From the IMG/VR virus record IMGVR_UViG_2721755651_000007: 64,000 nucleotides of DNA; one strand, written 5' to 3'. Below the pieces are notes generated by a model. It was not told where the DNA came from. It made no database searches and was given only the letters and a program-made list of their open reading frames with translations. Positions 16,842-20,698 of this stretch are shown piece by piece. Made by a program: the position numbers and the translations under genes. The stretch comes from a virus. Lineage: Duplodnaviria; Heunggongvirae; Uroviricota; Caudoviricetes. Within the stretch, counting starts at the first letter, position 1, and each line of letters begins with the position of its first letter.

Positions 16842-16890
16842 TTAACGAGTAAAATCGACCCTGTACACGATTCTGTGTAAATGCCTTTTC

Positions 16891-17711
16891 TCAGAAGTGA
16901 CCGTCCAGGCGGTCACCGAACTCGATAATAAAGCGGCTCATTGCCATACGCCAGTCCCGCAGTGGCATCGTCCATTTCTGTGAAGCCGCCTGGATTGCCA
17001 GCCACACGACCTTTTTCACTGAGTCATCCGTCGGGAACACCTTGCGTTTTTTGATGGCATGCCGGATTACGCTGTTCAGCGACTCGATGGCGTTGGTTGT
17101 GTAGATGACTTTGCGGATATCTGCCGGGTAAGCGAAGAACATCGCCAGGTTGGTCCAGTTTGCCTGCCAGCTCCGGCTTATCTGCGGGTAGCGACTGTCC
17201 CAGGCGCTGGCGAACGCTTCCAGCGCCTGCTGGCCTGCTTCTTCTGTGGGGGCCTGGTAGATGGCTTTCAGGTCGCGGGTGACGGCTTTGTAGTCCTTCC
17301 AGGAAACGAACCGCAGGCTGTTGCGCACCATATGCACGATGCACAGCTGGATGCGGGCTTCCGGATACACCGTGTTGATAGCGTCCGGGAAGCCTTTCAG
17401 CCCGTCGACACAGGCTATGAGAATATCGTTCAGGCCGCGGTTTTTTAGTTCAGTCAGCACATTGAGCCAGAACTTCGCTCCCTCGTTTTCGGCCAGCCAC
17501 ATACCCAGTAACTCTTTCTGGCCTTCGATATTGATACCCAGTGCGAGGAATACGGATTTATTGATTACGCGACTGTCCTGCCGAACCTTCAGGACAATAC
17601 AGTCAAGATAAACAATGGGATAGACCGCATCCAGTGGCCGGTTTTGCCATTCGACTACCTGCTCCATAACGGCATCGGTGACCTTCGATACCAGCGCCGG
17701 TGAGACATCAG
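16891..17711 (-). pseudogene. IS256-family transposase, C-terminal part
   Basis: mutator-type transposase motifs; frame interrupted at IS66 target duplication. Confidence 0.75.
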
Positions 17712-17782
17712 GTAAGCGTACAGCCTGAACCGTCTGGTCAGAATCTGACGAATTAGACAAAGTGGTGTCCACCAAATAAGTA

Positions 17783-18184
17783 GTGGGAACCAAAGTATCA
17801 GATATGCAGAAAAATGTGACTCCCGGCAGGCGAAAAGGCTGCCCTAATTATCCTCCCGAATTTAAACAGCAGCTCGTTGCTGCCTCCTGTGAACCCGGGA
17901 TATCCATCTCAAAACTTGCTCTTGAAAATGGCATTAACGCCAATCTGTTGTTCAAATGGCGACAACAATGGCGCGAGGGAAAGCTGCTATTACCTTCTTC
18001 AGAGAGCCCCCAGCTACTTCCTGTGACTCTCGATGCAGCTGCCGAACAGCCAGAATCGCTCGCAGAGGACCCGGAAACCCTCAGTATCAGCTGTGAGGTA
18101 ACGTTCCGGCACGGGACGCTCCGCTTCAATGGCAATGTCAGCGAAAAGCTCCTGACTCTGCTGATACAGGAACTGAAGCGATGA
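17783..18184 (+). CDS. IS66-family accessory protein TnpA (orf1)
   Basis: 133 aa, first of three IS66 ORFs. Confidence 0.8.
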   Translation: MGTKVSDMQKNVTPGRRKGCPNYPPEFKQQLVAASCEPGISISKLALENGINANLLFKWRQQWREGKLLLPSSESPQLLPVTLDAAAEQPESLAEDPETLSISCEVTFRHGTLRFNGNVSEKLLTLLIQELKR

Positions 18185-18528
18185 TCCCGTTACCTTCCGG
18201 GACCAAAATTTGGCTGGTTGCCGGTATCACCGATATGAGAAATGGCTTCAACGGCCTGGCTGCGAAAGTACAAACGGCGCTGAAAGACGATCCCATGTCC
18301 GGCCATGTTTTCATTTTCCGGGGCCGCAGCGGCAGTCAGGTTAAACTGCTGTGGTCCACCGGTGACGGACTGTGCCTCCTGACCAAACGGCTGGAGCGTG
18401 GGCGCTTCGCCTGGCCGTCAGCCCGTGATGGCAAAGTGTTCCTTACGCAGGCGCAGCTGGCGATGCTGCTGGAAGGTATCGACTGGCGACAGCCTAAGCG
18501 GCTGCTGACCTCCCTGACCATGCTGTAA
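18181..18528 (+). CDS. IS66-family TnpB (orf2)
   Basis: 115 aa, overlaps orf1 stop. Confidence 0.8.
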
Positions 18529-18577
18529 ATCTCTTTATCCTGGTTGTCACAGAATAAGCCCGGTAAAATACGGGCTT

Positions 18578-20116
18578 ATGAACGACATCTCTTCTGACGA
18601 CATCTTCCTGCTGAAACAGCGCCTGGCCGAACAGGAAGCGCTGATCCACGCCCTGCAGGAAAAGCTGAGCAACCGGGAGCGCGAAATAGACCATCTGCAG
18701 GCGCAGCTGGATAAACTCCGCCGGATGAACTTCGGCAGTCGTTCCGAAAAAGTCTCCCGCCGTATCGCACAAATGGAAGCCGATCTGAACCGGCTTCAGA
18801 AAGAGAGCGATACGCTGACTGGTAGGGTGTATGACCCGGCAGTACAGCGTCCGTTGCGTCAGACCCGCACCCGTAAGCCGTTCCCTGAATCACTACCCCG
18901 TGACGAAAAGCGACTGTTGCCTGCGGCGCCGTGCTGCCCGAACTGCGGCGGTTCACTGAGCTATCTGGGCGAGGATACCGCCGAACAGCTGGAGTTGATG
19001 CGTAGCGCCTTCCGGGTTATCCGGACGGTACGGGAAAAACATGCCTGTACTCAGTGCGATGCCATCGTGCAGGCACCTGCACCTTCGCGGCCCATCGAGC
19101 GGGGTATCGCCGGACCGGGGCTGCTGGCCCGCGTGCTGACCTCGAAGTATGCAGAGCACACCCCGCTGTATCGCCAGTCAGAAATATACGGCCGGCAAGG
19201 TGTGGAGCTGAGGCGTTCACTGCTGTCGGGCTGGGTGGATGCATGCTGCCGGCTGCTGTCTCCGCTGGAAGAGGCGCTTCATGGCTATGTCATGACTGAC
19301 GGCAAACTCCATGCCGATGATACCCCGGTCCAGGTACTGCTGCCGGGTAATAAGAAGACGAAGACCGGGCGGTTGTGGGCGTATGTTCGTGATGACCGCA
19401 ATGCAGGGTCAGCGTTGGCACCTGCAGTGTGGTTCGCTTACAGCCCGGACAGAAAAGGCATCCATCCGCAGACTCATCTTGCCTGCTTCAGCGGTGTGCT
19501 GCAAGCGGATGCGTACGCCGGGTTCAACGAGCTGTATCGCAATGGTGGGATAACGGAAGCTGCCTGCTGGGCTCATGCCCGCCGAAAGATCCACGATGTG
19601 CACGTCCGCATCCCGTCAGCACTGACGGAAGAAGCCCTGGAGCAGATCGGTCAGTTGTACGCCATAGAGGCGGATATAAGGGGAATGCCGGCAGAGCAGC
19701 GGCTTGCTGAACGTCAGCGAAAAACGAAACCGTTGTTGAAATCCCTGGAAAGCTGGTTGCGTGAAAAGATGAAGACCCTGTCGCGACACTCAGAGTTGGC
19801 GAAGGCGTTCGCGTACGCACTTAACCAGTGGCCGGCACTGACGTACTATGCGAACGATGGCTGGGTGGAAATCGACAACAACATCGCTGAAAATGCCCTG
19901 CGGGCGGTCAGTCTGGGTCGTAAAAACTTCCTGTTCTTCGGCTCTGATCATGGTGGTGAGCGGGGAGCGCTACTGTACAGCCTGATCGGGACGTGCAAAC
20001 TGAATGACGTGGATCCAGAAAGCTACCTTCGCCATGTGCTTGGCGTCATAGCAGACTGGCCGGTCAACCGGGTCAGCGAACTGCTTCCGTGGCGCATAGC
20101 ACTGCCAGCTGAATAA
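18578..20116 (+). CDS. IS66-family transposase TnpC (orf3)
   Basis: 512 aa, N-terminal coiled coil, CxxC zinc motifs, DDE region. Confidence 0.9.
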
Positions 20117-20153
20117 CACATCCCCGTCAATACGGCCCTCGCTGTACGCTTAC

Positions 20154-20549
20154 GACATCAGCGTCATACAGCTCTTTAAACGCAGCCGCTATTTCGCGGG
20201 TTGTCAGGCCTTTGGCGTACAACGACAGGATCTGGTTATCCATCCCGGTGATCCGGGTCTGGTTTTTCTTCACAAGTTGCGGTTCAAAAGAGCCATCACG
20301 ATCGCGCGGAGTGCGTAGTTCCAGGTGGCCATCACCGGTGATAACGGTCTTTGTGGAATAGCCATTGCGGGAGTTGGCACCCGGTTTAGGCTGGTTTTTA
20401 TCGTAGCCCAGATGGTGGGACATTTCAGCGTTGAGAGCTGCCTCAACGCTGATTTTCTTCAGCAGGCGATCGAACTGGCTGAGATCTTCAGGGGTTTTGA
20501 GATTTTTGGCCAGTTCGTTAGCCAGAGCCTGCAACTGTTTTTCGTCCAT
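20154..20549 (-). pseudogene. IS256-family transposase, N-terminal part
   Basis: ..LNAEMSHHLGYDKNQ..RNGYSTKTV..PRDRDGSFEPQLVKK.. typical IS256 N-terminus. Confidence 0.75.
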
Positions 20550-20698
20550 AAATTAACCTGCTTTTGATGTTGGATTGAACATATCAAAATCAGGCAATTA
20601 CACAAATCTATGTACAGGCTCCTCAGTAAATATCAATACGGTTCTGGCGAGCCGCTTACGATGCATGAGAATCACTAATAGTATGTAATTATTACATT

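What the first reader, a model, noticed from the sequence alone, without database searches (positions are those of the whole stretch)
16857..20621. IS66-family element nested inside an IS256-family transposase gene with perfect 8-bp duplication
The ISEc8-like element (17712..20153) is flanked by GACATCAG on both sides and splits an IS256-type transposase into N- and C-terminal halves. This IS stack sits exactly at the boundary between the two prophages and may have mediated the rearrangement.
Basis: seen in the sequence. Interest (0 to 1): 0.4.

Follow-up and report, generated by a model that had tools for sequence, protein, structure and literature searches.

The report
ISEc8 nested in an IS256-family element
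One insertion sequence (ISEc8) has jumped into the transposase gene of another (an ISEic2-like IS256-family element) inside prophage Sp12 of E. coli O157:H7; this is real but ordinary, it is already annotated in reference genomes, and it did not create the tandem-prophage arrangement.

Summary
A 2,442-bp ISEc8 (IS66 family) lies at 17712-20153 and is flanked by GACATCAG on both sides. Removing it plus one duplicate restores a 402-aa IS256-family transposase. The restored sequence is 100% identical, in one piece, to the uninterrupted locus in O157 strains 493/89 and LSU61, and ~99.9% identical to O55:H7. The host element (16857-20621; 1,315 bp without the insert) is ISEic2-like.

The Sp11/Sp12 junction lies at 16459/16460, 398 bp to the left, with a dinI-like gene in between. 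The IS256-family element already sat at this spot in O55:H7, which has a single prophage. Tandem prophages also exist without ISEc8.

The nested structure is annotated in the Sakai reference genome and is present in about 210-230 complete genomes, so it is already known.

Three extras:
- Bases 20622-20659 are a 38-bp end remnant of a third IS, also IS66 family.
- The IS256-family copy has no target duplication of its own, which points to an older rearrangement.
- In 13 genomes this ISEc8 has recombined with the inverted ISEc8 of prophage Sp9. The duplications are swapped, which is the signature of a ~400-kb inversion.

The parts
15126..16421 (+). Integrase gene of the left (Sp11-like) prophage. 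It is intact here and transcribed towards the junction.
   Evidence: PGAP annotation of the identical region in FDAARGOS_293 (window = locus + 7399). It is a pseudogene in Sakai.
16456..16460 (.). True Sp11/Sp12 prophage junction (att region).
   Evidence: The Sakai features 'prophage Sp11' and 'prophage Sp12' meet at 2204088/2204089, which is window 16459/16460. Homology with the ydfJ-adjacent single-prophage junction of O55:H7 begins at window 16459.
16599..16841 (+). dinI-like gene of Sp12. It lies between the prophage junction and the IS stack.
   Evidence: Pfam DinI 3.6e-17; annotation.
16857..17711 (-). Left part of the ISEic2-like IS256-family element. It holds the inverted repeat starting GACCCTGTACA and the C-terminal ~272 codons of the transposase.
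   Evidence: Sakai annotates it as 'ISEic2 Family: IS256 partial'. Ends are confirmed by plasmid copies.
17704..17711 (.). Target-site duplication, copy 1: GACATCAG.
17712..20153 (+). ISEc8 (IS66 family), 2,442 bp. Inverted repeats at 17712-17733 and 20132-20153; tnpA 17804-18184; tnpB 18181-18528; tnpC 18578-20116. All three ORFs are intact.
   Evidence: It is 2,441/2,442 identical to both the Sp12 and Sp9 features that Sakai curates as 'ISEc8 Family: IS66'.
20154..20161 (.). Target-site duplication, copy 2: GACATCAG.
20162..20621 (-). Right part of the ISEic2-like element. It holds the transposase start (ATG at 20549), the first ~129 codons and the inverted repeat ending CAGGCTC.
   Evidence: The right end is confirmed by a plasmid copy that has its own 8-bp duplication.
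20622..20659 (+). 38-bp 3'-terminal remnant of a third IS, an IS66-family element that is not ISEc8. It includes the tnpC stop codon and the terminal repeat ending GCTTAC, and it abuts the IS256-family end directly.
   Evidence: Flagged as repeat D3. The 44-nt query 20622-20665 that contains it has 90-100% matches at the ends of IS66-family elements in more than 2,200 plasmids. Its position at the very end of an intact element was read directly in plasmid p300709_97.
20699..21349 (-). nleG7 type III effector gene of Sp12, the right-hand neighbour of the IS stack.
   Evidence: Pfam T3SS_NleG 5.1e-48; annotation.

Best explanation
The window is the Sp11/Sp12 tandem-prophage region of E. coli O157:H7. 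In the accessory (moron) end of Sp12, between dinI and nleG7, sits a 1,315-bp ISEic2-like IS256-family insertion sequence.

A copy of ISEc8 transposed into codon ~130 of its transposase gene. ISEc8 is IS66 family and encodes TnpA, TnpB and the DDE transposase TnpC. The staggered 8-bp cut was repaired into the GACATCAG duplication, and the insertion inactivated the host IS.

Inferred order of events:
1. An IS66-family element sat next to nleG7. The ISEic2-like element arrived in its last 38 bp, and the sequence on the other side was later lost or exchanged. All of this happened before the O55:H7/O157:H7 split.
2. The Sp11-like phage integrated by site-specific recombination at the same att site, 398 bp away.
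3. ISEc8 inserted in the lineage leading to typical O157:H7.

Today the intact ISEc8 copy mainly acts as a 2.4-kb portable homology. In some strains it has recombined with the inverted ISEc8 in prophage Sp9, inverting ~400 kb of chromosome.

Shown: the anatomy, the empty sites, the position of the junction and the swapped duplications. Inferred: the transposition chemistry (from family knowledge), the order of events, and the ancient flank replacement.
For: Anatomy, duplication and ORF restoration.

Empty site for ISEc8: 493/89 and LSU61 match the reconstructed 2,551 bp at 100% in one piece. O55:H7 strains CB9615, RM12579, DEC5B and DEC5D match at 99.9-100% from query base 57-60 onward. Annotation of these loci.

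Curated names and prophage limits in Sakai. Junction alignment.

Prevalence: 210 genomes carry the whole nest and 230 carry the left junction.

ISEc8 identity: 2,441/2,442 to the Sakai copies.

Host IS relatives: 99.6% to E. coli plasmid copies, 92.5% to Edwardsiella ictaluri ISEic2, and ~91.9% to E. albertii plasmid copies under which PLSDB lists astA/EAST1. A bona fide 8-bp duplication (TTGCACAT) flanks the E110019 plasmid copy.

Third IS remnant.

Inversion: strain 8368 has GACATCAG-ISEc8-CGAAAAAC and CGAAAAAC-ISEc8-GACATCAG ~400 kb apart, in opposite orientation. The Sakai Sp9 copy has CGAAAAAC on both sides, is inverted relative to the Sp12 copy, and lies 397 kb away. Thirteen genomes share the chimeric junction.
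Against: No ISfinder reference could be consulted. The names ISEc8 and ISEic2 therefore rest on the Sakai record's annotation and on PGAP family names.

The host IS is only 92.5% identical to E. ictaluri ISEic2, so it is 'ISEic2-like' rather than an isoform.

The order 'Sp11 first, then ISEc8' assumes that the Sp11-like prophage of 493/89 and LSU61 shares descent with the one here. Independent acquisitions were not excluded.

The inversion is read from public assemblies. Misassembly across a 2.4-kb repeat cannot be excluded for individual genomes, although 13 concordant complete genomes make that unlikely.
Confidence: 0.95

Rival explanations
1. One reading: the IS stack marks the exact boundary of the two prophages and IS-mediated recombination created the tandem arrangement.
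For: The stack lies within 400 bp of the junction. The IS256-family copy lacks its own target duplication, so some IS-associated rearrangement did happen here.
Against: The junction is at 16459/16460, with dinI between it and the IS. The same dinI-IS256-nleG7 arrangement, with identical flanks, exists in O55:H7 where only one prophage is present next to ydfJ. Tandem prophages exist without ISEc8. The Sp11-like integrase gene ends 38 bp from the junction, as expected for site-specific integration.
Confidence: 0.03
2. The two IS256-family halves come from two different elements joined through ISEc8, so the structure is chimeric rather than a simple insertion.
For: None beyond the general possibility. 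Chimeric ISEc8 junctions do exist in 13 other genomes.
Against: Identical 8-bp flanks; exact restoration of a 402-aa ORF; 100% identity of the reconstructed element and both outer flanks to uninterrupted loci in 493/89 and LSU61.
Confidence: 0.01
3. The missing target duplication of the IS256-family copy is only mutational decay of an old duplication. On this view no flank replacement occurred, and the adjacent 38 bp are not an IS remnant.
For: The insertion is old: it predates the O55/O157 split.
Against: The 8-bp flanks GTAAAATC and CTCAGTAA agree at 2/8 positions, which is chance level. The right flank is 100% identical to the last 38 bp of a widespread IS66-family element, including its stop codon and terminal repeat. 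The left flank is the 3' end of dinI with no IS66 sequence. No contiguous dinI-nleG7 empty site exists in 5,426 genomes.
Confidence: 0.05

Closest known systems
ISEc8 (IS66 family) as annotated in E. coli O157:H7 Sakai, Sp12 copy 2206654..2209095
   Same: Same length (2,442 bp), same locus, same flanks and same three ORFs. It is 2,441/2,442 identical. It has the 8-bp duplication and GTAAGCG-type inverted repeats typical of the family.
   Different: One synonymous base differs in tnpA (window 17941 C, Sakai A). Sakai also has an IS629 in the neighbouring dinI region and a deleted Sp11 integrase, and this window has neither.
ISEic2 of Edwardsiella ictaluri and IS1414 of E. coli (IS256 family)
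   Same: Same length class (1,315 bp); a single ~402-aa Mutator-type transposase; similar ends; 8-bp duplication in a bona fide insertion. The Sakai record labels this copy 'ISEic2 Family: IS256 partial'.
   Different: Only 92.5% nucleotide identity to E. ictaluri ISEic2, and ~91.9% to E. albertii plasmid copies under which PLSDB lists astA/EAST1. The astA/EAST1-like overlapping frame has no ATG here. This copy is disrupted and has no duplication of its own.
Large chromosomal inversions between repeats in O157:H7 prophages (e.g. the Sp6/Sp14 1.15-Mb inversion, PMC7430833; Iguchi et al. 2006 as cited in PMC8991562)
   Same: Homologous recombination between inverted repeats carried by prophages flips a large chromosome segment. 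Here the repeats are the ISEc8 copies in Sp9 and Sp12.
   Different: The crossover substrate is an IS copy rather than phage sequence. This particular pair was not named in the papers I could search. In the window itself the parental, non-inverted arrangement is present.

Membership tests
IS66 family / ISEc8 | Three-gene organisation tnpA-tnpB-tnpC, with tnpC a DDE_Tnp_IS66 transposase | tested here: met
   Pfam: HTH_Tnp_1 1.8e-12; TnpB_IS66 1.2e-38; DDE_Tnp_IS66 2.1e-106 plus zf-IS66, LZ_Tnp_IS66 and the IS66 C-terminal domain. The tnpA stop overlaps the tnpB start (ATGA).
IS66 family / ISEc8 | Terminal inverted repeats of ~20-30 bp beginning GTAAGCG | tested here: met
   17712-17733 against 20132-20153: 13/13 exact at the tips and 82% over 22 nt. 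This is the only such pair in the 64-kb window.
IS66 family / ISEc8 | 8-bp target-site duplication | tested here: met
   GACATCAG on both sides. The empty site with a single copy is seen in 493/89, LSU61 and O55:H7. The Sp9 copy has CGAAAAAC on both sides.
IS66 family / ISEc8 | Near-identity to the reference ISEc8 sequence | tested here: met
   2,441/2,442 to both features labelled 'ISEc8 Family: IS66' in NC_002695.2. The ISfinder entry itself was not available.
IS256 family (ISEic2-like) | Single ~400-aa Mutator-type (Transposase_mut) DDE transposase | tested here: met
   The reconstructed 402-aa ORF matches PF00872 at 7.6e-119 over profile positions 17-377 of 379.
IS256 family (ISEic2-like) | Imperfect terminal inverted repeats at defined ends | tested here: met
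   23/30 match between 16857... and ...20621. Independent copies in other contexts end at exactly the same bases.
IS256 family (ISEic2-like) | 8-9-bp target-site duplication flanking the copy | tested here: not met
   The flanks are GTAAAATC and CTCAGTAA, 2/8 identical. The family feature is met by the E110019 plasmid copy (TTGCACAT on both sides). So this copy has lost or exchanged a flank. It is still a family member by sequence.
IS256 family (ISEic2-like) | Isoform-level identity to ISEic2 (the >=95% nucleotide convention of ISfinder, from my own knowledge) | tested here: not met
   92.1-92.5% to Edwardsiella ISEic2 copies. Hence 'ISEic2-like', although the Sakai record uses the ISEic2 label.
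Prophage boundary element (att junction of tandem lambdoid prophages) | The feature coincides with the point where the two prophage sequences meet | tested here: not met
   The junction is at 16459/16460 and the IS stack begins at 16857.

The most novel reading that the evidence does not exclude
The intact ISEc8 copy in this nest, together with its inverted twin in prophage Sp9, may be a recurrent hotspot for a ~400-kb inversion in O157:H7. The inversion would arise independently in several lineages and has not been described as such. It is seen in 13 of ~230 complete genomes that carry this insertion.
Probability: 0.35. Interest if true: 0.3.

Novelty: already known. Interest (0 to 1): 0.1.

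Why it matters
There is little new here. IS-in-IS nesting is common, and this instance is already annotated in the O157:H7 Sakai reference and in hundreds of RefSeq genomes.

It has modest practical value:
- The ISEc8 insertion is a clean derived marker. It is absent from O55:H7 and from 493/89 and LSU61, and present in typical O157:H7.
- The stack records three layers of IS activity in the effector-carrying end of Sp12.
- The ISEc8 pair in Sp9 and Sp12 explains one class of ~400-kb inversion seen in complete O157:H7 assemblies. This is relevant to structural-variation typing.

Tried and rejected
1. I searched for an empty site for the IS256-family element, that is, dinI flank joined to nleG7 flank. 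None of 5,426 complete E. coli genomes has both halves contiguous.

2. I searched for the presumed progenitor junction: IS66-family 3' end ...CTCAGTAA followed by the ISEic2-like end. No exact case was found. The only hits were two 2-piece ~92% matches involving IS1414 near an IS66 tnpC.

3. I looked for a target duplication around the MN06021 plasmid copy. There was none; that plasmid is an IS mosaic.

4. I checked whether the host IS carries a functional astA/EAST1 gene like IS1414. The frame is present but has no ATG at the position I recalled for the astA start, so I did not pursue it.

5. I searched the literature for ISEc8 plus inversion and for ISEic2. The papers found were general ones on O157 IS content and on prophage-mediated inversions. 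None described this nest or the Sp9/Sp12 ISEc8 inversion specifically.

6. I considered whether strain 20R2R ('culture mutant') shows the inversion arising in the laboratory. Its likely parent PA20 already has the chimeric junction, so it gives no evidence for a new event.
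Full report
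**What is in the sequence**

Reading 16500-21000 and checking by script shows GACATCAG at 17704-17711 and again at 20154-20161. The 2,442 bp between them start GTAAGCGTACAGC and end with its exact reverse complement. This motif pair is unique in the 64-kb window, against 0.07 expected by chance. The inverted repeat extends to 22 nt at 82%.

Inside are three + strand ORFs:
- tnpA at 17804-18184, matching HTH_Tnp_1.
- tnpB at 18181-18528, matching TnpB_IS66 at 1.2e-38.
- tnpC at 18578-20116, matching DDE_Tnp_IS66 at 2.1e-106 plus the IS66 zinc-finger, leucine-zipper and C-terminal domains.

On the minus strand, the flanking ORFs are the two halves of one gene. Deleting 17712-20161 gives a 402-aa ORF with a full-length Transposase_mut (IS256/Mutator) match at 7.6e-119. 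The break falls in codon ~130.

It is 1,315 bp without the insert.

**Is it more than chance?**

Yes, decisively. The reconstructed pre-insertion sequence (2,551 bp including both outer flanks) matches O157 strains 493/89 and LSU61 at 100% identity in a single piece. It matches several O55:H7 strains at 99.9-100%. In those genomes PGAP annotates one intact IS256-family transposase between the dinI-like gene and nleG7. These are natural empty sites for the ISEc8 insertion.

**Identity and prior knowledge**

The window is E. coli O157:H7. The 5-kb region is 100% identical to many complete genomes. 210 genomes carry the whole nest and 230 carry its left junction.

The Sakai reference record already carries repeat_region features 'ISEic2 Family: IS256 partial' and 'ISEc8 Family: IS66' (2206654..2209095) at this locus, inside the feature 'prophage Sp12'. 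The window's ISEc8 is 2,441/2,442 identical to that copy and to the Sp9 copy. Published comparisons count nine ISEc8 copies in Sakai and FRIK804 (PMC7430833).

The host IS has these relatives:
- 99.6% identity to copies on E. coli plasmids.
- 92.5% identity to Edwardsiella ictaluri ISEic2.
- ~91.9% identity to E. albertii plasmid copies under which PLSDB lists astA/EAST1.

I therefore call it ISEic2-like.

**The prophage boundary**

In Sakai, Sp11 ends and Sp12 begins at 2204088/2204089. This maps to window 16459/16460.

Independently, O55:H7 CB9615 has a single prophage here, next to a truncated ydfJ. Its sequence becomes identical to the window from base 16459 rightwards (GAAATCCATAATTCA...), while everything to the left differs. 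So dinI (16599-16841) and the IS stack belong to Sp12. The stack begins 398 bp from the junction.

The Sp11-like integrase gene ends at 16421, 38 bp from the junction. That is the usual geometry of site-specific integration.

O55:H7 already has the IS256-family element with the same flanks but no second prophage. Strains 493/89 and LSU61 have both prophages but no ISEc8. So neither IS can have generated the tandem arrangement. The inferred order is: IS256-family element, then the Sp11-like prophage, then ISEc8.

**A third layer and a missing duplication**

The repeat finder paired the ISEc8 right end with 20633-20661 (family D3). Following this up, the 44-nt query 20622-20665 matches the ends of another IS66-family element at 90-100% in more than 2,200 plasmids. 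In plasmid p300709_97, the 38 bases 20622-20659 are the very end of an intact tnpA-tnpB-tnpC element, including the tnpC stop codon and the terminal ...GCTTAC. So the ISEic2-like element abuts a 38-bp stump of a third IS.

A bona fide insertion of the ISEic2-like element makes an 8-bp duplication: TTGCACAT on both sides in plasmid pE110019_65. That copy also confirms the element's exact ends. The window copy has GTAAAATC on one side and CTCAGTAA on the other, which is chance-level agreement. Its left flank is the end of dinI, with no IS66 sequence.

No contiguous dinI-nleG7 site and no progenitor junction exist among 5,426 complete genomes. The simplest reading, which is inferred, is that the ISEic2-like element inserted into that IS66-family element and one flank was later replaced, either by an adjacent deletion or by recombination between IS copies. 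This happened before the O55/O157 split and within Sp12's accessory region, not at the prophage boundary.

**What the nest does now**

The host IS is dead. The ISEc8 copy is intact and nearly identical to its sisters.

In some genomes the two outer flanks of the nest lie far apart. In strain 8368 one locus reads dinI - IS256 half - GACATCAG - ISEc8 - CGAAAAAC - IS1414 remnant/nleF/nleH1-2. The other locus, ~400 kb away and in the opposite orientation, reads espM1/nleG ... CGAAAAAC - ISEc8 - GACATCAG - IS256 half - nleG7.

In Sakai the Sp9 ISEc8 (1807305..1809746) has CGAAAAAC on both sides. It is inverted relative to the Sp12 copy and lies 397 kb away.

Swapped duplications are the classical signature of homologous recombination between inverted IS copies, that is, an inversion. 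Thirteen complete genomes share the chimeric junction. PA20 and its derivative 20R2R are clearly one lineage. I did not test independence of the rest.

Inversions between prophage-borne repeats are well documented in O157:H7 (PMC7430833; Iguchi 2006 as cited in PMC8991562). I found no paper naming this ISEc8 pair.

**Mechanism**

From established knowledge of the families, ISEc8's TnpC is a DDE transposase. The 8-bp staggered target cut, filled in after strand transfer, gives the GACATCAG duplication. TnpA and TnpB are accessory proteins. This chemistry is inferred from family membership and was not tested here. What is shown directly is the before-and-after state of the target.

**Verdict**

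The structural interpretation is correct. The suggested role in creating the prophage tandem is not supported. The feature is an ordinary IS nest that is already annotated. The small additions are the third IS stump, the missing duplication of the host IS, and the Sp9/Sp12 ISEc8 inversion seen in about 6% of genomes carrying the insertion.

Noticed in passing
window 20622-20659: A 38-bp terminal stump (tnpC stop codon plus right inverted repeat) of a second, different IS66-family element sits directly against the IS256-family end. The 44-nt query 20622-20665 containing it is 100% identical to the ends of elements on hundreds of plasmids.
   Followed up: yes
window 16849-16856 and 20622-20629: The ISEic2-like element has no target-site duplication (GTAAAATC vs CTCAGTAA), although a plasmid copy of the same element has a perfect 8-bp one. 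No empty site or progenitor junction was found in 5,426 E. coli genomes.
   Followed up: yes
L006 7313-9754 and L007 ~3094-5535 (strain 8368); Sakai L008 10306-12747: In 13 complete O157:H7 genomes this ISEc8 has recombined with the inverted ISEc8 of prophage Sp9. The 8-bp duplications are swapped (GACATCAG/CGAAAAAC), which indicates a ~400-kb inversion. The number of independent events is not determined.
   Followed up: partly
window ~17290-17400, minus strand (inside the IS256-family transposase gene): An astA/EAST1-like overlapping reading frame (…STRCIRKPASSCASCIWCATACGSFPGRTTKPSPAT*) is present. At the position where I recall the astA start codon, it has ACG instead of ATG, so it is probably not expressed as EAST1. 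PGAP does annotate an EAST1-family peptide in the IS1414 remnant of Sp9 in strain 8368.
   Followed up: partly
window 15126-16421: The Sp11-like integrase, and the upstream exonuclease and excisionase, are annotated intact in genomes identical to this window. In Sakai a deletion fuses exonuclease and integrase pseudogenes, and an IS629 sits in the dinI region. The window is therefore not Sakai-type at this locus.
   Followed up: partly
hit H29, strain PV15-279 (NZ_AP018488.1 1990572-1994379): In this atypical O157:H7 strain the same IS256-family copy is interrupted by an IS629/IS1203 element instead of ISEc8. This is an independent IS-in-IS insertion into the same target element.
   Followed up: no
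Sakai L008 9390-9889 (Sp9): The Sp9 ISEc8 copy also lies within ~420 bp of an IS256-family remnant (annotated 'IS1414 Family: IS256 partial'). Both ISEc8 copies involved in the inversion therefore sit beside IS256-family debris in effector-rich prophage ends.
   Followed up: no
window, whole: GACATCAG occurs 8 times in the window against 1.8 expected from shuffles. Apart from the two flanking copies, the other six are scattered in phage genes and were not examined.
   Followed up: no
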